NCBI GenBank assembly: GCA_040388745.1
Contig: JAZKBF010000032.1
Location: 82,246 to 146,245, forward strand
Length of the DNA stretch: 64,000 nucleotides
Direction of reading: 5' to 3'
Origin: Bacteroidota bacterium
GTDB taxonomy: Bacteria; Bacteroidota; Bacteroidia; 2-12-FULL-35-15
Below the pieces are notes generated by a model. It made no database searches, was not told where the DNA came from, and worked only from the letters and a program-made list of their open reading frames with translations. Shown one piece after another: positions 1-10,455 of this stretch. Position 1 is the stretch's first letter. Each line of letters starts with the position of its first letter. A program made the position numbers and the translations under genes.

Positions 1-2355
1 TTTATTTGCCGGGGGAGTCGGGATCGTCCCAACATTACTCAGGTAAAACTCATTGGTAGCGTAACAATTCACGGGAGTGGCATTCCCTATATTGGAAGTA
101 ACTTTATAGCGCGGTTTAAAAACAAGGGAGTCATTATCCAGATAGGCAAATCCTCCCGGAAGGCATGCCCCGAGCGTGGAAACACTTAAATTATATTTAA
201 AGATCCTTGTTGATCCACTGTTGGTAATTGTTGGTGCAAAACTAGTGCAGGTGGCAAATAAAAGGCCTGAGCGGTAAACAGTTAGTGTGGCATCTAAAAA
301 ACTAAGACGGTTACCGTTTGAAAAAGAAGAAGAAGCAAAACAGTACTGCCAGGTAGGATAGGTGATGCTTGTTTTAACTTTTCCGTTGAAGCGGGATGTA
401 ATGGTATCACCAAACATGGCTCTGTCAGTTTTTATTTTTGTAAAATCAAGACTTCCTCCAATGTCAGGCAGTCCGTTTCCACCTCCAGCTTCATTGTCGG
501 GCAGACCATAGCTGGTACGCTTCATATCAAAATTGCTAAAGATCATTCCTTCCGGGCACGGAGCAGGACAAATAACACTAATAGCGGTACTTTGGCAGGA
601 AAGACCTATTTCGCAGGCACAAGAACCGTTTGGAACGTAAAAAGATTTTACACTTACAGTACCGGCACCGCCCGTTCCACCACAGCCCGCGCAATTTACC
701 GTTAAGTTAATTTTTACTTCGGCCTGTAAAAGGTTCCATGGAGCGTTTCCGTTAAAAATAGCGGTGACCACATTTCCTGAAGTAGTTACAGAGGTTGGCG
801 TCCATATATTTACCCCGTTGGAACGCAAAATTTGAAGGTTGCCGGCTCCTGCCACGTACGTTAAACAGGGAGGGATGGTAAATTCGAATTTCCAATACGC
901 TCCAGGTCCTACCGGATAAGAGTGTTGGTAATTGGAAAACAAAAAATTAAAGGTACCTGTCTGTCCATTGGTTAATGTAGAAGGGGAACCGTTATTTGCT
1001 AAACTCCCATAAAGTTGGTCATATACCATTCCCCATGCTTCCGTCACTATATAAGTGCTTTGGCAAATATTTTCATAAGTGCCTCTGAAACGCCAGCCGT
1101 TAATATAGTTTTGACCAATGTTTGTACAGGCATTGTAACAGCAACTATAAGTGTTCCATTTTAAATAAAGGGTATCTCCGGCATTAATGTTTGGAATATT
1201 TATGAATACCTTGCCCTTGGGGCTGGTCATACAATTCAGGGCAGCCGTAGCAAATGTACTTGTAGGAGTGATTGAAGCTGGAGAGCCTCCAAAGCCTATT
1301 TGCATAGTAAAACTCGCAGGATCAATGTTTGAACCAACATTAGCATTATAAACAGTTCCTGATGTTGCCTGGAAAATATCCATTATTACATTTACTGCTT
1401 TTCCTAAGCCGGTATTGACAATTTTGAGTTGTTGCAAGCTGGCATTTCCAGCACCAATACATGAATTCATGGAAGGTATCGGGGTAACAACCAAATTTGG
1501 GATCAAATTCGGGAAAACAACATTGCCATTGGAAACTGTTGTCTGGCAATGTTGAGCATTACAGCCCCAATACGCTTCAAATGCGGATGCTACAGAAATG
1601 CAATTAAGAACCTTTACAGTTTCACAGATAATTACGCTCTCTCCATTCTCCAATAAATTATCCCCATCCCCAATACTTACAAAATTACTTCCATTCAATA
1701 CAATGGTTTCAGTAGATCCCGAATTGGTCCAACTACCTGCATTTACTGCTGTAATTTGTACTCCGGAACCGTGAACATCCGTTAATGTAAATTCACTGAG
1801 TTCACCTAATCCCCCATTTGTAACAGTGATGCAGCGAGTGTATATATCTCCTATATTCCCTGTAAAAGATTGATTTGTAACCGCAGAGATGGAAAGGTTG
1901 GGTTGGCGTATAATGTAAGATGAGGTGGTGCTCTGATCGTAATTTGCGGCACCATTTGCGAAATAGTTGACACGGATGCCATTTTCAACAATTCCTCCTC
2001 CGGATAGAAATGCCATCACATCACAACTAACGGAAGCAATATATGTAATATTTAAAGTAGATAAATTAGCAATATTGGGTAATAAAAAAACGGGTTGGTT
2101 TGGAATGCTTGTATATAGCTCGGTTGCACCGGTAATGGATCCCAATTGATAATTTATGCCGGTTGGCATAGTTAATTTTAAAGTATCCTTTGTAAGTAAA
2201 AAAGGAGATGGGTTATAGATAGAAATAGTGAAAGACTTAGTAGCTCCACAAATGGTCATTTGAGTGGGAACCGTACTATTTATAGTAATCATGTTGCCCT
2301 GACCCCAGCCCTGGAAATAGAGAAAAGCGAAAATAAAGGGTAAAAATTTTTTCAT
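1..2355 (-). CDS. Large secreted Cys-rich repeat protein, N-terminal portion only; the gene continues past the window start. It is a possible T9SS cargo or adhesin-like surface protein.
   Basis: ATG at 2353-2355 on the minus strand, with an open frame to position 1 (codon phase checked over the first 240 nt). N-terminus MKKFLPFIFAFLYFQGWGQG looks like a signal peptide. The body is rich in Cys, Gly, Asn, Thr and Ser with repeated CxxC-type segments, and is compositionally similar to the two type-B T9SS proteins at 43-48 kb. The C-terminus lies outside the window, so no sorting domain could be checked. Confidence 0.45.
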   Translation of the reverse strand, partial: MKKFLPFIFAFLYFQGWGQGNMITINSTVPTQMTICGATKSFTISIYNPSPFLLTKDTLKLTMPTGINYQLGSITGATELYTSIPNQPVFLLPNIANLSTLNITYIASVSCDVMAFLSGGGIVENGIRVNYFANGAANYDQSTTSSYIIRQPNLSISAVTNQSFTGNIGDIYTRCITVTNGGLGELSEFTLTDVHGSGVQITAVNAGSWTNSGSTETIVLNGSNFVSIGDGDNLLENGESVIICETVKVLNCISVASAFEAYWGCNAQHCQTTVSNGNVVFPNLIPNLVVTPIPSMNSCIGAGNASLQQLKIVNTGLGKAVNVIMDIFQATSGTVYNANVGSNIDPASFTMQIGFGGSPASITPTSTFATAALNCMTSPKGKVFINIPNINAGDTLYLKWNTYSCCYNACTNIGQNYINGWRFRGTYENICQSTYIVTEAWGMVYDQLYGSLANNGSPSTLTNGQTGTFNFLFSNYQHSYPVGPGAYWKFEFTIPPCLTYVAGAGNLQILRSNGVNIWTPTSVTTSGNVVTAIFNGNAPWNLLQAEVKINLTVNCAGCGGTGGAGTVSVKSFYVPNGSCACEIGLSCQSTAISVICPAPCPEGMIFSNFDMKRTSYGLPDNEAGGGNGLPDIGGSLDFTKIKTDRAMFGDTITSRFNGKVKTSITYPTWQYCFASSSFSNGNRLSFLDATLTVYRSGLLFATCTSFAPTITNSGSTRIFKYNLSVSTLGACLPGGFAYLDNDSLVFKPRYKVTSNIGNATPVNCYATNEFYLSNVGTIPTPPANK

Positions 2356-2376
2356 CCTTTTCTTTTTTACTGAATT

Positions 2377-2395
2377 GAGGTAAAAATTCTACTGC
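2377..2395. other. AT-rich promoter region of the large surface-protein gene; no specific motif called.
   Basis: Position only: the region is directly upstream of the start at 2355 and immediately follows the end of the PKS operon at 2552. This is a weak call. Confidence 0.15.
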
Positions 2396-2551
2396 AATGT
2401 AATAAAAAGATGCAAAAAAATCAAAATTAGTTGCACCGATAGGGCTTTTGCTGTTGTTTTTTTTATTTTTAAGATCGTCTCAAAGGTTGGCTTAAAATAA
2501 GACTAAAGAGCGGTATTTTGACTGGTGGGGTTACTTTTGAGAATTATCGGC

Positions 2552-3712
2552 TTAAAAAGGCTTTCCATGGGTTGATTTAATGATCGTGTTTTTCAAAAAT
2601 GGGATTGCTTTAAGTACCGTAATGGCGATATCAGTCAAGAATTTATTTTTCAATAAATATTGTAAATAGACAGAAAAGTTAATGCGTTTTTGAAATTCTG
2701 ATTTCCAGATCTTTTGATATTTATTTTCTAATTCGGTTCGGGTGATTTCCCCATTGAAATAATTTATCAATAGCTTGTTCAAGAGAAAAGAACTACGCAT
2801 GGCCATACTCATGCCATTTCCAGCGAGTGGGGCAATGTTACCTGCAGCATCACCCAACATCAGAATATTGTTTTCGACAGCTTTTTTATATCCTATTTTA
2901 ATTTGTGAAATAACCAATGGTTTTTCAAATATGAAGTTGGCTTGCGTAAAATATTTTTTCAAAATTGGATTTTGCATTAACACCTGCTCTTCCATTTTTT
3001 TTATATCCCCATTATTGTTTTTCAGATTTTCAGAATCCGTCAGATAACAAAAACAATACTTATTATCTTCAATTTTTGAAATACCGCAATAACCATTCTT
3101 GAAATTATGTAATTCTATCAAATCGTCAGGGAAATCAATGTTTATATGGTACTTTATTCCCACATAATTTTTTTTTCTTTTGCTACCGTTTGTTATGAAC
3201 CAACGGGCTAATTTATTATCTAAATTACTATGCTTGCCCCATGCACCGACACAAACAGAAGCAGAATAATTCCCTTTTTCAGAATCTATTGCAAAACTAT
3301 TGTCATGGAATTTTACATCATTTACTTTGCAATCATCGATCAGTTTTACGCCCTTATTTATTGCAATTTCAGCCAGTTTAGAATCCAGTAAAAAACGACT
3401 TATTCCAAATCCGCCCAAATCAAGCTTATGCTCAAAGCGTTTTCCGGATGGTGATGAAACATTCAGCTTTTTTATTTGCGGCAAATTCATGTCCGATAGG
3501 TTTAGGCCCAATCGTTCCAGGAAATTCCAGGATTCCATTGAAATGTACTCACCACAAACTTTGTGAAAAGGATATTTATGCTTTTCAAATAATATGCAAG
3601 AGTAGCCCGCATCGGCCATTTGAATAGACAACGTTAATCCGGCCAAACCACCGCCAATAATAGCGATCTGATATTGATTGTTTTCTTTTATTTGATTTTT
3701 TTCTTGAGCCAC
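2552..3712 (-). CDS. FAD-dependent oxidoreductase or monooxygenase of the geranylgeranyl-reductase-like flavoprotein family. Last gene of the type III PKS operon and a SrsC-like candidate.
   Basis: N-terminal Rossmann dinucleotide motif IAIIGGGLAGLTLS and a 386-aa flavoprotein-like layout. The same-strand gene neighbourhood matches the srsC position. Confidence 0.8.
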   Translation of the reverse strand: MAQEKNQIKENNQYQIAIIGGGLAGLTLSIQMADAGYSCILFEKHKYPFHKVCGEYISMESWNFLERLGLNLSDMNLPQIKKLNVSSPSGKRFEHKLDLGGFGISRFLLDSKLAEIAINKGVKLIDDCKVNDVKFHDNSFAIDSEKGNYSASVCVGAWGKHSNLDNKLARWFITNGSKRKKNYVGIKYHINIDFPDDLIELHNFKNGYCGISKIEDNKYCFCYLTDSENLKNNNGDIKKMEEQVLMQNPILKKYFTQANFIFEKPLVISQIKIGYKKAVENNILMLGDAAGNIAPLAGNGMSMAMRSSFLLNKLLINYFNGEITRTELENKYQKIWKSEFQKRINFSVYLQYLLKNKFLTDIAITVLKAIPFLKNTIIKSTHGKPF

Positions 3713-3725
3713 TCAATAAATTGAT

Positions 3726-4193
3726 CTAACTGTTTTTAAAGTCTTTCCAGGTAAAGATCAAGGGTAACGCCTTTTGGAGGATAGAAAAAACATTAATTAA
3801 ATATACCTGAAAATAAACATTATAATAAAAGCAAACAGCAGAATCTAAAATAACCCATGTGCCAAATGCTACCATAATGGCATTGCGAGCCCAACGTTCC
3901 TTCCTTTTGAAAGGATACCAAGCTATATACGCAAGTAAAATATAGGAGCATGCAATTGTGCCACCTAATGGGCCACAAATAAAAAATAAAAAAGGTTCAA
4001 GGTCTGTCGGTATATTTTGTTGATGCAAAAAAAGACGCGCAAGCGCTTGAATGTAGGGCGTGAATAATGGATTGTTACCATAGAGAGCGAGGACAATTCC
4101 AAATAAAACAAACAGCAAGCTGGTATAGAAAAGCCATCTTTGCCAAAAAAGAAAGGAGCTTATTTTTTTTGAACCTTTATTGATGTCCTGCAT
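3726..4193 (-). CDS. Small polytopic membrane protein of unknown function inside the PKS operon.
   Basis: Multiple hydrophobic helices (LFYTSLLFVLFGIVLALY, ILLAYIAWYPF, IMVAFGTWVILDSAVCFYY). Overlaps the upstream methyltransferase stop by 17 nt on the same strand, which suggests translational coupling. Confidence 0.5.
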   Translation of the reverse strand: MQDINKGSKKISSFLFWQRWLFYTSLLFVLFGIVLALYGNNPLFTPYIQALARLFLHQQNIPTDLEPFLFFICGPLGGTIACSYILLAYIAWYPFKRKERWARNAIMVAFGTWVILDSAVCFYYNVYFQVYLINVFSILQKALPLIFTWKDFKNS

Positions 4194-4902
4194 ACTTTCC
4201 GTTTCGATGAATAATTAAATAACGGAAAGCCCACATCCATTTCATATCAACATTTTTTACTTCAGCTTTCTCCAATATTTTTTTTAACTCTGTGTTTTTA
4301 AATCCCCGCAACACGGAGAGTGGCGCATCGTTCCTAACTAATGATGATCCGTTTAATAAGCGGGTTAAAAGTTTAATACTGTAATACGCAAACCAGTGCC
4401 GATGTAGATCATTTATCACAAAACCTATTTTAGCATATTGTTTTATGCAGGTAAAAAGTTCTATTAATTCATCATCTTTTAAATGATGGCAAAACAAAGA
4501 ACAATGAATAATATCAACTGTATCATCATTTTTTAAAAACTCACGGAAATCATTATTCACTCCATTGATCTCGGGATAATCTTTGCAATAACTTTTCAAA
4601 TAATTTATGGCATCATTATTAAAATCGACTCCGGTTAATTTTACTTTATAGTTATTTTGTTTTGCCCATTTAGCAATCCTTTTCATCGCATCTCCTCCGC
4701 CACAGCCAATATCAACAATATGGTATATCTTGTTTTTATCTGTAAGCAGTTCTTTTATTCCGGCAAGTGTAACAGAATGCCCGCCAAGTGTTTGGTTGAT
4801 GAGATCGAGTTCTTTTAAATTTTGAAATAATAATTCTGTAGGAATGTTGGGAGCATCCAGTAATTCAGATTCGTAGGACCGATGGGAAAATTTATTGTTC
4901 AT
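4177..4902 (-). CDS. Class I SAM-dependent methyltransferase; SrsB-like candidate.
   Basis: Motif I VDIGCGGGD followed by an acidic residue, in a 241-aa protein. Lies between the PKS and the flavoprotein genes on the same strand. Confidence 0.8.
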   Translation of the reverse strand: MNNKFSHRSYESELLDAPNIPTELLFQNLKELDLINQTLGGHSVTLAGIKELLTDKNKIYHIVDIGCGGGDAMKRIAKWAKQNNYKVKLTGVDFNNDAINYLKSYCKDYPEINGVNNDFREFLKNDDTVDIIHCSLFCHHLKDDELIELFTCIKQYAKIGFVINDLHRHWFAYYSIKLLTRLLNGSSLVRNDAPLSVLRGFKNTELKKILEKAEVKNVDMKWMWAFRYLIIHRNGKYAGHQ

Positions 4903-4926
4903 GCTATTGGGAAATACAACAGGTTA

Positions 4927-6021
4927 TTAAAAACGGAAAAGTGCTGTTTCGATGCTTAATCCAGGGCCAAACCCAATTGAAAAAACAGAATCATTTTTGT
5001 TTCGTTTCTCTTCCATGAATTCATTCAATACAAACAAAATGGTAGGGGACGACATATTACCATATTCATCCAATATTTTATAGGAATATTTTAAATCCTC
5101 CTCATTAAGTTGCAACTCTTTTTTTATAGTGTCCAATATTTTTTTTCCTCCCGGATGTACTGCCCATTTTTTAATGGTGTTCGGCTCTATATTAAATTTT
5201 TTACTTGCTTTCAAAATAATAGCATTGATCTCACTCCCAATGAAATCGGGTATTTTTGCGTCTAATATCATTTCAAAATTTACAGGTGTGATATTCCAGC
5301 CCATTAGATCTTTTCCTTTTGGAAGTAATAATGAATAAAATCCATTGATCGCTAAACTGTTCTGCTTAGGATCATTTTGATACTTATCTGAGGTTATAAT
5401 TACTGCGGCAGCTCCATCGCCAAAAATGGTATTTGATAATAAATTATCGTGATTGTTTTTCGGCTGAAAATGCAATGTACAGAGCTCCACACAAACGATC
5501 AGCACTTTTGCATTGTCATCAGATTTTGTAATAAGATCAGCAATTTTTAGTGCATGGAAAGCAGCATTGCAACCTAAAAAATTAACAGATATGTGAAAAA
5601 TATCATTCGGTAAATTAAGTTCTTCAATTAATTCGGCATCAATTCCGGGGGCATACAAACCGGTACAGGAAACGGTAATTAAATGGGTGAATCCAAAATC
5701 GGAAAGGTTAGAATTGATTTTTTTTAAAGCATTGCTTATCGCTTTAATAGCAAGCGGAACAGCTTTTTCTTTAAAAATGTTTAATCTGTAATCAACAGTT
5801 GAGGTGTCAGGTGTTCCATTGAAAAGAACGTGCTTTGATTTTGTTTTATCAAAATCTGGAATAGTAGAATATCGAGTACTAATCCCACTATGCTTGAATA
5901 GAACATTTAGCTTACGTGACGCTACATCATCGCTGTAAGCATCCTTCATAAAGCCAAGTATAACACTTTGTTCGGTGCCATATTCAGGGACTGCTGTTCC
6001 GATGGAAATTATTTTACTCAT
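4927..6021 (-). CDS. Type III polyketide synthase of the chalcone/stilbene synthase superfamily. Likely an alkylresorcinol or alkylpyrone synthase; SrsA/ArsB-like.
   Basis: 364 aa with an active-site Cys context ITVSCTGLYAPG, a C-terminal HPGGKKILD motif and a GFGPGLSIETALF tail, all typical of type III PKS. Confidence 0.85.
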   Translation of the reverse strand: MSKIISIGTAVPEYGTEQSVILGFMKDAYSDDVASRKLNVLFKHSGISTRYSTIPDFDKTKSKHVLFNGTPDTSTVDYRLNIFKEKAVPLAIKAISNALKKINSNLSDFGFTHLITVSCTGLYAPGIDAELIEELNLPNDIFHISVNFLGCNAAFHALKIADLITKSDDNAKVLIVCVELCTLHFQPKNNHDNLLSNTIFGDGAAAVIITSDKYQNDPKQNSLAINGFYSLLLPKGKDLMGWNITPVNFEMILDAKIPDFIGSEINAIILKASKKFNIEPNTIKKWAVHPGGKKILDTIKKELQLNEEDLKYSYKILDEYGNMSSPTILFVLNEFMEEKRNKNDSVFSIGFGPGLSIETALFRF

Positions 6022-6088
6022 TTGTTTTTTTAAAATTATCGATAATATCGATTTGTCTTTTAAATTGCCGCGACTGCCGTAAATGGTA

Positions 6089-6994
6089 CTAAAACCAACC
6101 CAAAATGTTATTCGTAATTAGAATTAAAAAGTAGATGTTCATACAAGTGGATGCCCAAAAATTCATTGCCATTGTATTTTCAAAATCTGCATTAGCCGTA
6201 TTTTTTCTGACCTCATTAAACCAATACATCAATCGAAGTATGACTGGAAGCATCATTAAGGAAAACATGATAAAAGCTATTCGCTGATGTTTTAGATCGA
6301 AATAATAAAATAATAAAATGGTCGCCAGTAAAAAAAATACAGAGGAAAACAAAAATGTACCGATATATCCGAGTCTATAACTGATGGTATTTACTCCATC
6401 TTTTTTATCAGCCTGGTGCTGATATATTTGAGTTAGCGGATAAACACTACCAATAAATAAACTTGACACGGTCATACAAATGATATTGTTTGTTGAGAAA
6501 AAGTGCCCAATTGAAAAATCTGTTGTTGCTGACGAAACCATTAAATAGGTGAAGGCTCCCTGAAAAATCATGACCGTTAAAAATCCGGGAATAGCATATT
6601 TTTTCAATCGTAAATTTCGGTAGCTGTAAGCGCGGGAAATAAGTATATACAGGAAAACAAATACTGAAAAATAAACAGAAACAAACAATGCGCTTAATAC
6701 GCCAATTATATCCAGCAATAATGTTACAAAGAACAAATTTTTGGTAACTTTTGGTGGATACTTTAAACCACCAATGCTTGTTTCGTCACGATCCTGATAG
6801 CTGTTGTATCCGTTGCTTGAGGGGTAAATGAAGAGGTGAAGGATCACAAATGCAATTGCGGTTGATTGCCAGTTAACAGAATTTGTCTGGCTTAGCGCAA
6901 ACAAAAATACCGGCATTAAATGATAGGAGAATGGCAAACGAAGGTGCTTAACAGTGCTTTTATCAAACCAAAGTGCAATGTTTAGATTCGCCAT
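6089..6994 (-). CDS. UbiA-superfamily aromatic prenyltransferase-like integral membrane protein.
   Basis: 301 aa with about 8-9 transmembrane helices. An Asp-rich segment NSYQDRDETSIGG and a second segment QADKKDG resemble the two UbiA Asp-rich motifs. It is the first gene of the same-strand operon with the PKS. Confidence 0.55.
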   Translation of the reverse strand: MANLNIALWFDKSTVKHLRLPFSYHLMPVFLFALSQTNSVNWQSTAIAFVILHLFIYPSSNGYNSYQDRDETSIGGLKYPPKVTKNLFFVTLLLDIIGVLSALFVSVYFSVFVFLYILISRAYSYRNLRLKKYAIPGFLTVMIFQGAFTYLMVSSATTDFSIGHFFSTNNIICMTVSSLFIGSVYPLTQIYQHQADKKDGVNTISYRLGYIGTFLFSSVFFLLATILLFYYFDLKHQRIAFIMFSLMMLPVILRLMYWFNEVRKNTANADFENTMAMNFWASTCMNIYFLILITNNILGWF

Positions 6995-7137
6995 ATTTAA
7001 ATAAAAAAATTCTAGTTAAAAAAATTCCAATTTCTAAAAATATTGTAATAATACAGTAGTGCCGGAATATTTCGTTGAAAACTGGTTATTAATAGCCAGG
7101 TATGCTTAAATATAAATTTGAAAACAATAAAGAAAAA

Positions 7138-8583
7138 CTATTTCAACTTGATACATACATTTTTAGGCTCGGTAAAAAAATCAAAAGCTTCAAAGCCGCC
7201 TTCTCTGCCTACTCCAGAGCTTTTTACTCCTCCAAACGGAGTTCGCAGATCACGAAGTAACCAACAGTTTATCCAAACAATGCCAGCGTGTAACATGCCA
7301 GCAACGCGGTGTGCGCGAGTTAAGCTTTCTGTCCATACAATAGCTGATAAACCATATTGAGTGCTGTTCGCATACATTAATACTTCTTCCTCTGTTTCAA
7401 AAGGAGTAAGAGTTACAACGGGACCAAAAATTTCTTCCTGATTTGTTCTGCAATTGTATGCCAACCCTTCAATTACAGTAGGGGCAATATAATATCCTTC
7501 GGAGAATTCACCATCCAGTTTCACTTGATGGCCTCCGGCTAATATCTTACCGCCTTCTTGTTTTGCTAATTCAACATAGGATAAAATTTTTTCCATGTGA
7601 GTTTTTGAAACTACAGCACCCAATCGGCTTTCGGCATCAGCGGGATTTCCCACTTTTAATGTTTTTACTTTTGAGATAAATTCGTTTTTGAATTTTTCAT
7701 AAATAGATCTTTCAATAAAAATGCGTGACCCGCAAAGGCATATCTGCCCTTGATTTGCGAAGGATGAGTGTAATGTTGTTTTAATGGCATTTTCTAGATC
7801 GCAATCGGCAAAAATGATATTCGGGTTTTTTCCTCCTAATTCCAAGGATATTTTTTTGAACATAGGAGCGGCAACCCGTGCAATTTCGGCACCTGTTTTT
7901 GTTCCCCCGGTAAAAGATATCAAAGGGATTTTTGGATGGGCTGAAATGGCAGCTCCAACCTTATGTCCATAACCATGTACAATATTTAGAACCCCTTTTG
8001 GTAAACCGGCTTCAATACAAAGTTCGGAAAGTAAATAGGCCGTCATAGGAGTGATCTCTGATGGTTTTGCAACCACGCAATTTCCGGATGCGATTGCCGG
8101 TGCAATTTTCCAGGTGAATAAATATAGTGGTAAATTCCAGGGAGAAATGCATCCTGCAACACCAACCGGTGTGCGTAATGTATAGTTGATTGCAGTATCT
8201 TCCATTGCGTGGCATTGGGAAGCATAATGCAATATACCTGTTGCATAAAAATGAAAATTACTTGCAGCACGAGGGATATCAATTATTCTGGCTAATGATA
8301 TTGGTTTGCCATTATCAATAGATTCGGCAATCGCTAAACGATCTAAATTTTTTTCGATAAGTTCAGAAATTTTCAACATGATGCGCGAGCGTTCCTCTTT
8401 TGGCGTTACCGACCATTTCGGGAAGGCCGCTAAAGCTGCTTCAGTAGCAAGGTTTACATCCTGTTCGTCTGAATCAGGAATGAGGGAATATACCTTTCCC
8501 GTTGCAGGATTATAATTATCTATATACTGGTTAGATGTAGGCTCAATAAGTTCACCGTTGATATAATTTTTTATTTTTTGCAT
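7138..8583 (-). CDS. NAD(P)-dependent aldehyde dehydrogenase.
   Basis: 481-aa ALDH fold with the catalytic segments FTGGTKTG, ELGGKNP and GQICLCGSR (catalytic Cys). Confidence 0.85.
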   Translation of the reverse strand: MQKIKNYINGELIEPTSNQYIDNYNPATGKVYSLIPDSDEQDVNLATEAALAAFPKWSVTPKEERSRIMLKISELIEKNLDRLAIAESIDNGKPISLARIIDIPRAASNFHFYATGILHYASQCHAMEDTAINYTLRTPVGVAGCISPWNLPLYLFTWKIAPAIASGNCVVAKPSEITPMTAYLLSELCIEAGLPKGVLNIVHGYGHKVGAAISAHPKIPLISFTGGTKTGAEIARVAAPMFKKISLELGGKNPNIIFADCDLENAIKTTLHSSFANQGQICLCGSRIFIERSIYEKFKNEFISKVKTLKVGNPADAESRLGAVVSKTHMEKILSYVELAKQEGGKILAGGHQVKLDGEFSEGYYIAPTVIEGLAYNCRTNQEEIFGPVVTLTPFETEEEVLMYANSTQYGLSAIVWTESLTRAHRVAGMLHAGIVWINCWLLRDLRTPFGGVKSSGVGREGGFEAFDFFTEPKNVCIKLK

Positions 8584-8841
8584 AATACTGATGTAACGAA
8601 TTTGTTTTTTAATTCTAATTAAGGGTAGCGTAATTGTTTCGATAATATCGGTTTAAAGAAACTGGTTATGCTAGATCCCGTATTGTAAAAGTACAAAATA
8701 ATTAAAGGGTATAAATTTGTGATTATCTAAATGTTGGAATGGCTTGAATACTACTAACAAGTGGATTAGAACAATGTTAAAATATGTTAAGGTTCTATGG
8801 GCTGAATGGAATAGCTTACTTTTGTAGTTCGGATCTAAGTT

Positions 8842-10455
8842 TTGATGAATAAAAACAATGTTAAAATAATAATTACAATGGCAAGTCTCGCCATGATTGG
8901 CTTAATTGCCATTCAGGTGTATTGGATCAACAATGCCATGACATTGAGTAAACAACGGTTTGAACAAAATGTGAATGAAGCTTTGAGCAATGTTGTTTCC
9001 CGGATGGAAAAACAAATTACAGCCTCTAAAATCCGTAAGAAATTTAATTTTCGCAAACAAGGTATTCGCTGGTTCAGTCCAATCGATTCATTGGCCAGAA
9101 CATCTGAATTTATTACTGATTCAAAATCAGATAAAAATGATTTTACGCTGCAAAAAGACAAAATAAACGTAAAGATCTACGAAGAGTATTCATCAGATTC
9201 CAATGGCGTAATTGTCAAAAAATCGCGCCATAAAAATTATTTGAGTGATAGTGCAACCTCTGAAATGAGCGGACTCACCGAGATGGACGTTCCAACCTAT
9301 ATCCACCAATTTAATTCCGGGGAATTACGTGATAAATGGTTTTCGCAGAAGAAAAATATGGTCAATGATATTTTTGATGAATTGGTAAGTATCAATATAT
9401 ATAATGACTACAGCAATAAGATTGATACACTTCTTTTAGATTCAGTGATCCAACGAGAACTCCTTGAAAAAGGTATTTCCGCTGATTATGTTTTTGGTGT
9501 CCTGCCTTCGAAAATACCTCCAACTGATATAAGCAAACTTTCTGAAAAAGAAACATTTTTATACACATCTAATTTTAAAATAAATTTATCACCAGATAAC
9601 GTATTTATTAAGCCGCAGTATTTATCCATATACTTTCCTGACCAACGCAATTATTTGTTGAGTTCTATGGGCTTTATGCTTGTAATTTCAGGTGCCTTTA
9701 TGATTGTTATCGTCTTTTCCTTTTATTACACAGTTTCAACCATTTTTAAGCAGAAAAAGCTATCTGAAATTAAAAATGATTTTATCAGCAATATGACGCA
9801 TGAGTTTAAAACCCCTATTTCTACTATATCATTGGCATGTGAAGTGTTAAATGACAAAACCTTTGAAAAATCGCCTGAAAGGGTTAGTAATTATGTGAAA
9901 ATGATCGGTGATGAGAACAAACGTTTAAGTTTATTGGTTGAAAATATTTTGCAAACTGCCATACTTGATAAAGGGGAGTTCAAATTAAAAATTCAAAGTA
10001 TTGATATTCATTCGTTGATCGAACAAACAATAGCGAATATTAAATTGCAGGTGGAGAATAAAGAAGGCGAAATTACCACTGAGTTAAAAGCCACAACGCC
10101 AATAATAAACGCTGATAAGATCCACGTAACAAATATTGTTTTTAATTTGATCGATAATGCCTTAAAATATTCACGTGGCAAACCAAAGATCAAGATCGGC
10201 ACCTATAATGATGAAGCTGGTATTTTTATTTCCGTTACAGATAATGGAATAGGTATAAATAAGGAAAACCAAAAACGGATTTTTGATACGATGTATCGGG
10301 TTCCAACCGGCAATATTCATAATGTAAAAGGTTTTGGATTGGGCCTGAGTTACGTTAAAGCGGTGGTTGAAAAACATGGCGGTTCTATTAGTGTAGAGAG
10401 CGAGCTGGGTAAGGGAAGCAGCTTTACAGTATATTTGCCAATTAATGTGGCATAA
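8842..10455 (+). CDS. Membrane sensor histidine kinase.
   Basis: N-terminal transmembrane segment, a second transmembrane segment around residue 270, an H-box MTHEFKTPIST, an N-box LIDNALKYS and the G-boxes DNGIGI and GFGLGLSYV. Confidence 0.85.
   Translation: MMNKNNVKIIITMASLAMIGLIAIQVYWINNAMTLSKQRFEQNVNEALSNVVSRMEKQITASKIRKKFNFRKQGIRWFSPIDSLARTSEFITDSKSDKNDFTLQKDKINVKIYEEYSSDSNGVIVKKSRHKNYLSDSATSEMSGLTEMDVPTYIHQFNSGELRDKWFSQKKNMVNDIFDELVSINIYNDYSNKIDTLLLDSVIQRELLEKGISADYVFGVLPSKIPPTDISKLSEKETFLYTSNFKINLSPDNVFIKPQYLSIYFPDQRNYLLSSMGFMLVISGAFMIVIVFSFYYTVSTIFKQKKLSEIKNDFISNMTHEFKTPISTISLACEVLNDKTFEKSPERVSNYVKMIGDENKRLSLLVENILQTAILDKGEFKLKIQSIDIHSLIEQTIANIKLQVENKEGEITTELKATTPIINADKIHVTNIVFNLIDNALKYSRGKPKIKIGTYNDEAGIFISVTDNGIGINKENQKRIFDTMYRVPTGNIHNVKGFGLGLSYVKAVVEKHGGSISVESELGKGSSFTVYLPINVA

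What the first reader, a model, noticed from the sequence alone, without database searches (positions are those of the whole stretch)
2552..6994. Five-gene type III PKS operon (srsABC-like) extended with a UbiA-type prenyltransferase; candidate prenylated phenolic-lipid or alkylquinone pathway
The operon reads, in order on the minus strand: a UbiA-like membrane prenyltransferase, a type III PKS, a SAM methyltransferase, a small polytopic membrane protein and an FAD-dependent oxidoreductase. Gaps are 3-60 nt and one pair overlaps by 17 nt. The PKS-methyltransferase-flavoprotein core corresponds to the established srsABC logic (alkylresorcinol synthase, O-methyltransferase, hydroxylase) that produces alkylresorcinols and alkylquinones in Streptomyces griseus. 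The aromatic prenyltransferase and the extra membrane protein are not part of that canonical operon. Together they would be expected to attach an isoprenoid tail to a methylated, hydroxylated resorcinol or quinol head group. That is a membrane quinone-like molecule made by a PKS rather than from chorismate. An aldehyde dehydrogenase and a kinase/regulator two-component pair lie immediately upstream and could be functionally linked.
Basis: partly seen in the sequence, partly recalled or inferred. Interest (0 to 1): 0.62.

Follow-up and report, generated by a model that had tools for sequence, protein, structure and literature searches.

The report
Bacteroidota prenylated phenolic-lipid gene cassette
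This is a real, strongly conserved operon in Bacteroidota that joins a type III polyketide synthase, a methyltransferase and a ring-oxidising flavoprotein to an unusual UbiA-type prenyltransferase; it most likely makes a prenylated, methylated phenolic lipid that nobody has isolated, but the same enzyme logic is already known from actinomycetes.

Summary
UbiA-PKS-MT plus a flavoprotein is a co-inherited cassette: it is found in 65 of 67 related species loci and in 34 of 38 metagenome loci, even where the proteins have diverged to 40-55% identity. In Dyadobacter the UbiA and PKS genes are fused into one protein.

The PKS-MT-FAD part is homologous, in the same gene order, to three-gene operons on alphaproteobacterial plasmids that have no prenyltransferase. 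This argues that the flavoprotein oxidises the aromatic ring and does not reduce a prenyl chain. In over half of the relatives its slot is filled by a standard 535-aa aromatic-ring hydroxylase.

The UbiA-like protein belongs to a distinct, uncharacterised subfamily with altered Asp-rich motifs (NSxxDxDE and QxxxD).

The small membrane protein is an optional accessory. The aldehyde dehydrogenase and the two-component pair are linked only in the closest relatives.

The srsABC analogy holds only in part, because SrsB is an ICMT-type methyltransferase. The prenyltransferase extension is not unprecedented: Actinoplanes agqABCD makes alkyl-O-dihydrogeranyl-methoxyhydroquinones. A systematic test found no recurrent linkage to respiratory genes.

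Verdict: a new variant of a known kind, of moderate interest.

The parts
6089..6994 (-). UbiA-superfamily membrane prenyltransferase-like protein (301 aa), first gene of the cassette. It belongs to a distinct uncharacterised subfamily.
   Evidence: Pfam PF01040 scores 49.3 bits against a 34.2 cut-off. No NCBIfam equivalog reaches its cut-off. A family profile aligns to ApUbiA 4od4 over residues 8-257 (E=1.1e-5) and to chlorophyll synthase 9sau. Invariant residues are N64, D68, D70, Y123, S124, R129, K131, Q189, Q192 and D196. The subfamily has 711 clusters at 50% identity. It is fused to a T3PKS in Dyadobacter (WP_149244224.1).
4927..6021 (-). Type III polyketide synthase (364 aa), probably primed by a long-chain acyl group.
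   Evidence: Pfam Chal_sti_synt_N and Chal_sti_synt_C. The best solved relatives are Steely1 2h84, brown-alga PKS 4b0n and M. tuberculosis PKS18 1ted (E about 1e-44). The Cys (NFLGCNAAF), His (WAVHPGG) and Asn (YGNMSSP) triad aligns to PKS18 and is conserved in 76 homologues.
4177..4902 (-). Soluble class-I SAM-dependent methyltransferase (241 aa).
   Evidence: Pfam Methyltransf_25/31/23/12/11, and NCBIfam PRK06202 at 143 bits over the full length, below its cut-off. It is 29-30% identical to the methyltransferases of the alphaproteobacterial T3PKS-MT-FAD operons. The same PRK06202-type methyltransferase is in the distant L089 cluster. Fusions of a methyltransferase to this flavoprotein exist (P0473, P0482).
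3726..4193 (-). Small polytopic membrane protein of unknown function (155 aa). It is an optional accessory gene and overlaps the methyltransferase gene by 17 nt.
   Evidence: No Pfam or NCBIfam hit. The family has 420 clusters; every member that carries an organism name is from Bacteroidota, and all named members are annotated 'hypothetical'. 38 columns are invariant. The AlphaFold model has pLDDT 62 and five helices. It is present in 12 of 67 related loci, at varying positions. In Pontibacter it is not linked to a PKS.
2552..3712 (-). FAD-dependent oxidoreductase of the GR2 fold (386 aa), most likely the aromatic-ring oxygenase of the pathway.

Best explanation
The locus is a four-enzyme biosynthetic cassette (UbiA-like, type III PKS, methyltransferase, flavoprotein) with one optional membrane protein. 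It makes a membrane-bound meroterpenoid phenolic lipid.

Proposed steps:
1. The type III PKS takes a long-chain fatty acyl thioester from primary metabolism and extends it with malonyl-CoA. It then cyclises the chain to an alkyl-resorcinol-type phenol. The intact catalytic triad and the similarity to long-chain enzymes are shown. The product is inferred.
2. The flavoprotein hydroxylates the ring to a hydroxyquinol or quinol. This is inferred from comparative genomics.
3. The class-I methyltransferase methylates the ring or a hydroxyl group. This is inferred, and O- versus C-methylation is unknown.
4. The UbiA-like membrane enzyme transfers an isoprenoid chain from a prenyl diphosphate onto the ring or a phenolic oxygen, as AgqD does in Actinoplanes. 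UbiA-superfamily membership is shown. The donor, acceptor and regiochemistry are inferred.

The 155-aa membrane protein is an accessory of unknown role. The aldehyde dehydrogenase and the two-component system are neighbours only in the closest relatives, so they are not counted as part of the conserved unit.
For: **The four genes are one unit**
- Families are confirmed.
- 65 of 67 GTDB species loci keep UbiA-PKS-MT plus a flavoprotein.
- 33 of 38 metagenome loci anchored on the flavoprotein keep all four genes, plus one more with the membrane protein inserted. Median identities there are UbiA 48%, PKS 43%, MT 46% and FAD 51%.
- UbiA-PKS is a single 652-aa polypeptide in Dyadobacter sp. 32, with five further variants from independent assemblies.
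- Two proteins (P0473, P0482) that JGI/IMG names 'flavin-dependent dehydrogenase/SAM-dependent methyltransferase' carry both domain sets.
- PKS linkage persists for UbiA-like homologues at 35-41% identity.

**The UbiA-like protein**
- The family profile aligns to ApUbiA over about 250 residues. It keeps N64, D68 and D70, the YS..RxK basic patch, and D196.

**The PKS**
- The catalytic triad is intact, and the nearest solved relatives use long-chain acyl starters.

**The flavoprotein as a ring oxygenase**
- It is homologous to the 'FAD-dependent monooxygenase' of T3PKS-MT-FAD operons that lack any prenyltransferase.
- A 45%-identical homologue sits in a Tyr/Trp-isonitrile aromatic-tailoring cluster.
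- In the sister architecture the slot is filled by a protein with FAD_binding_3 at 233 bits plus Rng_hyd_C, a standard aromatic-ring hydroxylase.

**Literature precedent for the chemistry**
- agqA-D makes alkyl-O-dihydrogeranyl-methoxyhydroquinones.
- hidABC and the planctomycete mtr-fdo-t3pks operons make tailored alkylresorcinols.
Against: - No product has been observed, so every chemical step is inferred.
- Both Asp-rich motifs of the UbiA-like protein depart from the canonical form. The first reads NSYQDRDE instead of NDxxDxxxD. The second reads QxxxD instead of DxxxD, with the Gln invariant. Its donor or its chemistry could therefore differ from ordinary aromatic prenylation.
- No prenyl-diphosphate synthase is in the cluster, so the donor is undefined.
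- The flavoprotein scores best against the geranylgeranyl-reductase superfamily model (97 bits). It carries a GGR-like CGE motif, and JGI names some homologues 'menaquinone-9 beta-reductase'. The fold searches do not separate reductase from oxygenase cleanly.
- Identity to the prenyl-free operon flavoproteins is only 24-26%.
- Whether the PKS makes a resorcinol, a pyrone or a phloroglucinol could not be tested.
Confidence: 0.62

Rival explanations
1. The cassette is the same, but the 386-aa flavoprotein is a prenyl-chain reductase of the geranylgeranyl-reductase or MenJ type. It would saturate a double bond of the chain installed by the UbiA-like enzyme. The product would then be a methylated alkylresorcinol with a partly reduced prenyl group, with no extra ring hydroxyl and no quinone.
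For: - The best NCBIfam hit is GG-red-SF TIGR02032, at 97.4 bits over nearly the full length.
- An invariant C53-G-E motif resembles the GGR motif as I recall it from memory.
- JGI names several homologues 'menaquinone-9 beta-reductase'.
- The Actinoplanes product carries a reduced (dihydrogeranyl) chain.
- In the loci fetched by anchoring on this flavoprotein, it nearly always travels with the UbiA-like gene.
Against: - The TIGR02032 score is below its 158.8 cut-off, and MenJ scores only 33.8 bits.
- The position aligned to the halogenase WxWxIP motif reads YCGISK. From memory, the GGR YxWxFP motif occupies the equivalent position, so that hallmark is also missing.
- Full-length homologues sit in T3PKS-MT-FAD operons and in an isonitrile cluster where there is no prenyl group.
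- MT-FAD pairs occur without a nearby UbiA gene, once next to a flavin reductase.
- In the sister architecture the slot is filled by a bona fide ring hydroxylase.
Confidence: 0.18
2. The UbiA-like protein is not an aromatic prenyltransferase. With its altered Asp-rich motifs it could use a different diphosphate donor, act as a terpene-cyclase-like enzyme, or mainly tether the PKS to the membrane. In that case the product would be an unprenylated tailored alkylresorcinol or alkylquinone, as in srs, hid and pkq.
For: - The second motif is QxxxD with an invariant Gln, and the first motif lacks two of its three canonical Asp positions.
- No curated NCBIfam prenyltransferase model reaches its cut-off.
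- Some subfamily members at 39-43% identity show no PKS in the short contigs available, and instead carry an unassigned C-terminal domain of about 200 aa.
- The Dyadobacter fusion would also fit a tethering role.
Against: - N64, D68, D70, D196 and the basic YS..RxK patch, which align with catalytic and diphosphate-binding positions of ApUbiA, are invariant across 44 sequences down to 32% identity. A mere anchor would not be expected to conserve them.
- Pfam UbiA scores above its gathering threshold.
- The characterised agq system shows that a UbiA-like enzyme prenylates exactly this kind of substrate.
Confidence: 0.1
3. The product is a respiratory or redox-active membrane quinone: a polyketide quinone with an isoprenoid tail that works as an alternative electron carrier alongside menaquinone in Bacteroidota. 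This is a claim about function, and it is compatible with the biosynthetic explanation above.
For: - Unprenylated polyketide quinones made by T3PKS-MT-oxidoreductase operons serve as electron carriers in M. smegmatis and Streptomyces (PMC9927152).
- In one distant species (two nearly identical loci, L089 and L090) the UbiA-like gene lies directly upstream of cydAB.
- In Dyadobacter an NDH-2 gene lies about 2 kb upstream of the cassette.
Against: - A systematic tblastn of NDH-2, CydA and CydB over all 173 fetched loci (1.88 Mb) found each only in its source locus.
- Unbiased clustering of neighbouring genes found no recurrent respiratory gene.
- Whether host genomes keep or lack menaquinone genes could not be examined.
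- The characterised agq product is an O-prenylated hydroquinone ether (from my memory of Awakawa 2011), which would not redox-cycle as a quinone.
Confidence: 0.1

Closest known systems
agqABCD of Actinoplanes missouriensis (alkyl-O-dihydrogeranyl-methoxyhydroquinone cluster; Awakawa et al. 2011, ChemBioChem 12:439), and agq-type loci in Phytohabitans and Micromonospora
   Same: It has the same four enzymatic functions in one small cluster: a type III PKS, a flavin-dependent oxidoreductase, a methyltransferase and a UbiA-family membrane prenyltransferase. It is the only characterised system where a UbiA-like enzyme decorates a type III PKS phenolic lipid.
   Different: - The phylum differs (Actinomycetota versus Bacteroidota).
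- At the Micromonospora locus with the agq-type gene set, the flavoenzyme is annotated as acyl-CoA-dehydrogenase-like. Here it has the GR2 (FAD_binding_3) fold, so the two are not homologous.
- The gene order differs.
- The UbiA-like protein here has altered Asp-rich motifs.
T3PKS-MT-FAD monooxygenase three-gene operons: plasmids of Paracoccus liaowanqingii, Falsirhodobacter algicola and Roseomonas haemaphysalidis. By description, also hidABC of Cyanobium and the planctomycete mtr-fdo-t3pks operon.
   Same: All three proteins are homologous to the window's, in the same PKS-MT-FAD order: PKS 32-37%, MT 29-30% and FAD 24-26% identity, over the full length for MT and FAD and for PKS in three of the four loci (the Paracoccus PKS matches residues 75-362 only). 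The hid and planctomycete operons likewise combine a SAM methyltransferase, a FAD oxidoreductase and an alkylresorcinol synthase.
   Different: Those operons have no prenyltransferase and no small membrane protein. The hid and planctomycete gene order is MT-FDO-PKS. Direct homology to HidA and HidB was not testable here.
srsABC of Streptomyces griseus and pkqABC of Mycobacterium smegmatis (alkylresorcinol to alkylquinone; polyketide quinones)
   Same: The order is PKS, then methyltransferase, then hydroxylase/oxidoreductase. The logic is phenolic lipid to quinone.
   Different: SrsB is an isoprenylcysteine-carboxyl-methyltransferase-type membrane enzyme, whereas the window's methyltransferase is a soluble class-I enzyme. 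These operons have no prenyltransferase.
Canonical UbiA and MenA aromatic prenyltransferases (ubiquinone and menaquinone biosynthesis) and chlorophyll synthase
   Same: They share the membrane fold and part of the active site: N and D of motif 1, the basic diphosphate patch, and the last Asp of motif 2.
   Different: The window protein reaches none of the curated equivalog thresholds. Its motif 1 is NSYQDRDE and its motif 2 is QxxxD. It is linked to a PKS rather than to chorismate-derived quinone genes.

Membership tests
UbiA prenyltransferase superfamily (PF01040) | Match to the family HMM above the curated threshold | tested here: met
   49.3 bits against a gathering score of 34.2, covering residues 28-275. 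A profile of 44 family members hits ApUbiA 4od4 (E=1.1e-5) and chlorophyll synthase.
UbiA prenyltransferase superfamily (PF01040) | First Asp-rich motif NDxxDxxxD | tested here: inconclusive
   The aligned motif is N64-S-Y-Q-D68-R-D70-E-T. N64, D68 and D70 are invariant. The Asp at position 2 is Ser and the Asp at position 9 is missing. ApUbiA reads NNIADLDID and ChlG reads NDFYDRDID at the same place.
UbiA prenyltransferase superfamily (PF01040) | Second Asp-rich motif DxxxD | tested here: not met
   The aligned positions read Q192-H-Q-A-D196. The Gln is invariant across 44 sequences and only the second Asp is kept. Superfamily membership still rests on the HMM match and the fold-length alignment. 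The catalytic consequences are unknown.
UbiA prenyltransferase superfamily (PF01040) | Mg2+-dependent transfer of a prenyl group from a prenyl diphosphate to a lipophilic acceptor | not testable with these tools
   This needs a biochemical assay.
Type III polyketide synthase | Chalcone/stilbene-synthase N and C domains and the Cys-His-Asn catalytic triad | tested here: met
   Pfam scores are 103.9 and 83.6 bits. Cys in NFLGCNAAF, His in WAVHPGG and Asn in YGNMSSP align with PKS18. They are conserved in 76 homologues.
Alkylresorcinol synthase subclass (ArsB, SrsA, HidC) | Aldol-type cyclisation determinant (Trp at ArsB position 281) and an alkylresorcinol product | not tested
The nearest solved relatives are long-chain-acyl enzymes with various cyclisation modes.
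srsABC operon | ICMT-type membrane methyltransferase (SrsB) | tested here: not met
   The window's methyltransferase hits only class-I Rossmann methyltransferase families (Methyltransf_25/31/23/12/11). SrsB is described as an isoprenylcysteine carboxyl methyltransferase (PMC6669644).
srsABC operon | Gene order PKS, then methyltransferase, then flavoprotein hydroxylase | tested here: met
   The order on the minus strand is PKS 4927-6021, MT 4177-4902, (MEM), FAD 2552-3712.
agqABCD-type cluster | Type III PKS, methyltransferase, flavin oxidoreductase and UbiA-like prenyltransferase clustered together | tested here: met
   All four functions are present and co-inherited. This is a match of function only. 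Orthology to the Agq proteins was not tested.
agqABCD-type cluster | Flavoenzyme of the acyl-CoA-dehydrogenase-like family, as annotated at the Micromonospora locus with the agq-type gene set | tested here: not met
   The window's flavoprotein has the GR2/FAD_binding_3 fold. The Micromonospora gene is annotated as an acyl-CoA dehydrogenase.
Prenyl-free T3PKS-MT-FAD triad (alphaproteobacterial plasmids) | Homologous PKS, class-I methyltransferase and FAD monooxygenase in the same order | tested here: met
   tblastn gives PKS 32-37%, MT 29-30% and FAD 24-26% identity, with E-values of 1e-22 to 1e-65. No UbiA hit is found in those loci.
Geranylgeranyl reductase family (TIGR02032) | Score above the curated cut-off | tested here: not met
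   97.4 bits against a cut-off of 158.8. In addition, the position aligned to the halogenase WxWxIP motif reads YCGISK. From memory, the GGR YxWxFP motif occupies the equivalent position, so that hallmark is also missing.
Flavin-dependent halogenases | WxWxIP motif and catalytic Lys | tested here: not met

The most novel reading that the evidence does not exclude
The cassette makes an isoprenoid quinone or quinol whose ring comes from a type III PKS rather than from chorismate. That would be a third biosynthetic route to prenylated membrane quinones. It would be widespread in environmental Bacteroidota, including anaerobic Bacteroidales and Prolixibacteraceae, and would serve as an auxiliary electron carrier or membrane antioxidant. 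Different lineages would use interchangeable ring hydroxylases: a GR2-type flavoprotein, a PheA-type hydroxylase, and possibly an O2-independent U32-type enzyme.
Probability: 0.1. Interest if true: 0.85.

Novelty: new variant of a known kind. Interest (0 to 1): 0.45.

Why it matters
If the prediction holds, a large and ecologically widespread group of Bacteroidota makes a family of prenylated phenolic lipids that has never been isolated. The group includes freshwater, soil, sediment and bioreactor lineages, and the cultured Dyadobacter and Williamwhitmania.

The UbiA-like enzyme defines an uncharacterised subfamily, with 711 clusters at 50% identity and thousands of sequences. Its active-site signature is unusual (QxxxD in place of DxxxD), and it occurs naturally fused to a type III PKS. 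That makes it an attractive target for enzymology and for engineering meroterpenoid pathways.

The modular swapping of ring-oxidising enzymes in one slot is a clean example of non-orthologous displacement in a small biosynthetic cassette.

The locus does not open a new category. The enzyme logic is already established by the agq, srs, hid and pkq systems.

Tried and rejected
- **Window 1-2500 as rRNA or non-coding.** The region has higher GC and no listed ORFs. Rejected: Rfam and tRNA scans were empty. It encodes a secreted protein of at least 785 aa on the minus strand that runs off the window edge.
- **Aerobe versus anaerobe split.** I considered that the FAD386 architecture marks aerobes and the HYD535 architecture marks anaerobes. 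This does not work as an oxygen-dependence explanation: the strict anaerobe Williamwhitmania taraxaci carries HYD535, itself a flavin hydroxylase.
- **Respiratory linkage.** cydAB sits next to the UbiA-like gene in L089, and NDH-2 lies near the Dyadobacter cassette. Tested over 173 loci and rejected as a recurrent feature.
- **U32-type (UbiU/V-like) anaerobic hydroxylase as a third slot-filler.** Seen in only one species (two nearly identical loci), with a marginal, partial Pfam hit of 24.0 against 22.4 bits. Kept as a side note only.
- **Flavoprotein as a halogenase.** Suggested by the fold neighbours, rejected on motifs.
- **Structure of the small membrane protein.** pLDDT was 62, so no fold search was attempted.
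- **Plasmid search with the UbiA-like protein.** No match.
- **Sigma-70 promoter and terminator scans.** No more sites than in shuffled sequence, so they are uninformative for operon boundaries. I also saw no clear Bacteroidota -7 TAnnTTTG box by eye in the 143-nt gap upstream of the UbiA-like gene.
- **Literature searches for this cluster in Bacteroidota.** Nothing specific was found.
- **Primary agq paper.** Not held in the library.

Full report
**1. Observation**

The intergenic distances are 67, 24 and 13 nt, and the third and fourth genes overlap by 17 nt.

Pfam and NCBIfam confirm the families:
- UbiA: PF01040, 49.3 bits against a gathering score of 34.2.
- Type III PKS: both chalcone/stilbene-synthase domains.
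- A class-I SAM methyltransferase.
- A 155-aa hydrophobic protein with no family.
- An FAD-binding oxidoreductase.

An aldehyde dehydrogenase lies 143 nt upstream on the same strand. A histidine kinase and response regulator pair lies divergently beyond it.

The region below 2552, which looked empty in the ORF list, is not empty. It holds a secreted protein of at least 785 aa on the minus strand, starting at 2355 and running off the window.

**2. The genes are one conserved unit**

A scan of one genome per GTDB species with the UbiA-like protein returned 115 relatives, of which the best 80 were kept. All but one are labelled Bacteroidota; the exception is one MAG labelled Spirochaetia.
- Of the 67 loci with at least 4.5 kb downstream, 65 carry UbiA, PKS, MT and a flavoprotein in the same order and orientation.
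- A second, independent scan of metagenome contigs was anchored on the flavoprotein. It reached a more distant tier, with median identities of UbiA 48%, PKS 43%, MT 46% and FAD 51%. Of 38 loci with enough upstream sequence, 33 have all four genes in order, and one more has the small membrane gene inserted after UbiA.
- UbiA-like homologues at 35-41% identity are still next to a type III PKS.
- In Dyadobacter sp. 32 the UbiA-like and PKS genes are one 652-aa polypeptide (RefSeq WP_149244224.1). Five further 652-aa variants come from independent assemblies. The fusion is followed by the MT and the flavoprotein.
- Two proteins that JGI/IMG names 'flavin-dependent dehydrogenase/SAM-dependent methyltransferase' carry both domain sets, so MT-flavoprotein fusions also exist.

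Chance juxtaposition is excluded.

**3. What is core and what is not**

- The small membrane protein is present in only 12 of 67 loci. It sits between MT and FAD in the window and its closest relatives, but after the flavoprotein, after UbiA, or on the opposite strand elsewhere.
- Its family has 420 clusters at 90% identity, no Pfam domain and only 'hypothetical' names. Every member that carries an organism name is from Bacteroidota.
- In Pontibacter it lies among copper and heavy-metal genes, far from any PKS. In Williamwhitmania it lies beside DUF305 and DUF5661 genes, next to the cluster.
- Its AlphaFold model is too poor (pLDDT 62) for a fold search. It is an accessory of unknown role.
- The aldehyde dehydrogenase and the two-component pair are adjacent only in about five closest relatives, so they are not part of the conserved unit.
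- Unbiased clustering of all neighbouring ORFs found no other gene present in more than 31 of 174 sequences searched (173 loci plus the window). The most frequent is an SDR directly downstream of the flavoprotein in 26 loci of one clade, and it is absent from the window.

**4. The flavoprotein slot**

Two architectures exist.
- In 26 of 65 loci the slot holds the window's 386-aa type.
- In 39 of 65 loci it holds a 535-aa protein with FAD_binding_3 at 233 bits and the aromatic-ring-hydroxylase C-terminal domain.
- The two share only the generic FAD motifs.

For the 386-aa protein, database names and models point in two directions:
- The geranylgeranyl-reductase superfamily model scores 97 bits, below its 158.8 cut-off, and JGI names some homologues 'menaquinone-9 beta-reductase'.
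- Against that, UbiH-type hydroxylases and halogenases rank first in sequence-profile comparison with solved structures.

The deciding evidence is comparative.
- Plasmids of Paracoccus, Falsirhodobacter and Roseomonas carry tight T3PKS-MT-'FAD-dependent monooxygenase' operons. A Novosphingobium plasmid has an ACP-KS-T3PKS-FAD variant. Their three proteins are homologous to the window's (PKS 32-37%, MT 29-30%, FAD 24-26%), and there is no UbiA gene.
- A 45%-identical homologue on a Hymenobacter plasmid follows a Tyr/Trp-isonitrile synthase and a TauD dioxygenase.
- MT-FAD pairs also occur alone, once followed by a flavin reductase.

A prenyl reductase would have no substrate in these contexts. 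I therefore favour a ring oxygenase at about 0.7, and I keep the reductase as the main rival.

**5. The UbiA-like protein**

- It belongs to a compact, distinct subfamily: 711 clusters at 50% identity with E up to 1e-3, and 213 with E up to 1e-30. The word-indexed search found 5,885 clusters at 90% identity.
- No curated NCBIfam prenyltransferase model comes near its cut-off, and a single-sequence search finds no solved structure.
- A 44-sequence profile aligns over about 250 residues to Aeropyrum UbiA (4od4, E=1.1e-5) and to chlorophyll synthase.
- In that alignment N64, D68 and D70 occupy the first Asp-rich motif. The window reads NSYQDRDE, where ChlG reads NDFYDRDID.
- Y123, S124, R129 and K131 occupy the basic patch. 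I read this as the diphosphate-binding patch from my knowledge of UbiA structures.
- The second motif reads Q192-x-x-x-D196, with the Gln invariant.
- The conserved polar residues argue for a catalytically active enzyme. The altered motifs mean that its donor or its chemistry may be atypical.
- Some members at 39-43% identity have no PKS in the short contigs available. Several of these carry an unassigned soluble C-terminal domain of about 200 aa.

**6. The PKS and the methyltransferase**

- The PKS triad is intact and conserved.
- The best solved relatives are Steely1, the brown-alga PKS and PKS18, which I know to use long-chain acyl starters.
- The methyltransferase is a soluble class-I enzyme. 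It scores 143 bits on NCBIfam PRK06202, as does the methyltransferase of a distant cluster in L089. It has no close solved relative.
- It is not of the SrsB type, which is ICMT-like.

**7. Comparison with known systems**

- The literature held by the tools contains no description of this Bacteroidota cluster.
- The enzyme logic is known. agqA-D in Actinoplanes missouriensis makes alkyl-O-dihydrogeranyl-methoxyhydroquinones. From my memory of Awakawa 2011, these genes encode a type III PKS, a monooxygenase, a methyltransferase and a UbiA-like prenyltransferase.
- The Micromonospora loseolamycin locus lists a UbiA prenyltransferase, a methyltransferase, an 'acyl-CoA dehydrogenase' and a type III PKS side by side.
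- hidABC, the planctomycete operon, srsABC and pkqABC are the prenyl-free relatives. A cyanobacterial hid-like cluster with a prenyltransferase has been predicted.
- The window is therefore a new variant. It has the same four functions, but in another phylum, with a non-homologous flavoenzyme, a divergent UbiA subfamily and its own conserved gene order.

**8. The quinone idea**

Polyketide quinones act as electron carriers in actinobacteria. I saw cydAB directly after the UbiA-like gene in one distant species (two nearly identical loci, L089 and L090). There a marginal U32-family protein, from the family of O2-independent hydroxylases, replaces the flavoprotein. I also saw NDH-2 near the Dyadobacter cassette. 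A systematic search over all 173 loci found each of these only in its source locus. The idea is not excluded, but it has no comparative support. I give it about 0.1.

**9. Verdict**

The locus is a new variant of a known kind, with interest of 0.45.

Noticed in passing
window 1-2355, minus strand: A large secreted protein (at least 785 aa, with a signal peptide and a weak DUF11 hit) starts 197 nt downstream of the flavoprotein gene and runs off the window edge. The ORF list does not show it for that reason. It is syntenic in L003, L061, L002 and L014. The region also has higher GC (0.43-0.45) than its surroundings.
   Followed up: partly
L089 and L090 (NCBI GCA_003516325.1, DPCG01000097), 1317-9430: A distant cluster with a 403-aa protein, a PRK06202-type methyltransferase and a T3PKS, plus a glyoxalase. 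The 403-aa protein has a marginal, partial Peptidase_U32 hit (24.0 against 22.4 bits); U32 is the UbiU/UbiV/TrhP family of O2-independent hydroxylases. The cluster is divergent from a UbiA-like gene (35% identity) that is followed directly by cydA, cydB and a rubrerythrin-like gene. It was seen in this one species only.
   Followed up: partly
L173 7001-8959 (Dyadobacter; RefSeq WP_149244224.1): A natural UbiA-T3PKS fusion. By the canonical nine-helix UbiA topology (N-terminus inside, C-terminus outside, from my knowledge of ApUbiA), a C-terminal PKS would end up outside the cytoplasm. Either the topology of this subfamily differs, or the last hydrophobic segment does not span the membrane. This is unresolved.
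   Followed up: no
P0183, P0205, P0211, P0239, P0257, P0262; L084 737-2239: UbiA-like subfamily members of about 500 aa carry a shared soluble C-terminal domain of about 200 aa that has no Pfam assignment. In the one context read, P0205 has no PKS nearby and has a convergent BacA (undecaprenyl-diphosphatase) gene.
   Followed up: partly
for example L004 10596-11381; 26 loci in all: In one large clade of the FAD386-type architecture, a short-chain dehydrogenase of about 262 aa lies directly downstream of the flavoprotein on the same strand, with gaps of 20-214 nt. It is absent from the window. It could be a fifth pathway enzyme or simply lineage synteny.
   Followed up: partly
L091 (Pontibacter sp. 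172403-2) 8001-8459; L092 (Williamwhitmania taraxaci) 1069-1521: In Pontibacter, the homologue of the small membrane protein sits among copper and heavy-metal genes (CusB, DUF3347, Csp, a P-type ATPase). In Williamwhitmania it sits next to DUF305 and DUF5661. This hints at a metal-related role rather than a biosynthetic one.
   Followed up: no
L174 (Hymenobacter swuensis pHsw1) 2075-7089: An uncharacterised three-gene set: an L-Tyr/L-Trp isonitrile synthase, a TauD/TfdA dioxygenase and a 45%-identical homologue of the window's flavoprotein. It is a possible isonitrile natural-product cluster.
   Followed up: no
L132 5074-8237: A methyltransferase and a FAD386-type flavoprotein are followed by an SDR and a flavin reductase, with no PKS or UbiA gene nearby. 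This suggests the flavoprotein family may work as a two-component, FADH2-dependent oxygenase.
   Followed up: no
L030 10719-12326, and 39 related loci: Bacteroidales and Prolixibacteraceae lineages, including the strict anaerobe Williamwhitmania taraxaci, fill the flavoprotein slot with a 535-aa aromatic-ring hydroxylase, which should need O2. How this works in anaerobes is unexplained.
   Followed up: no
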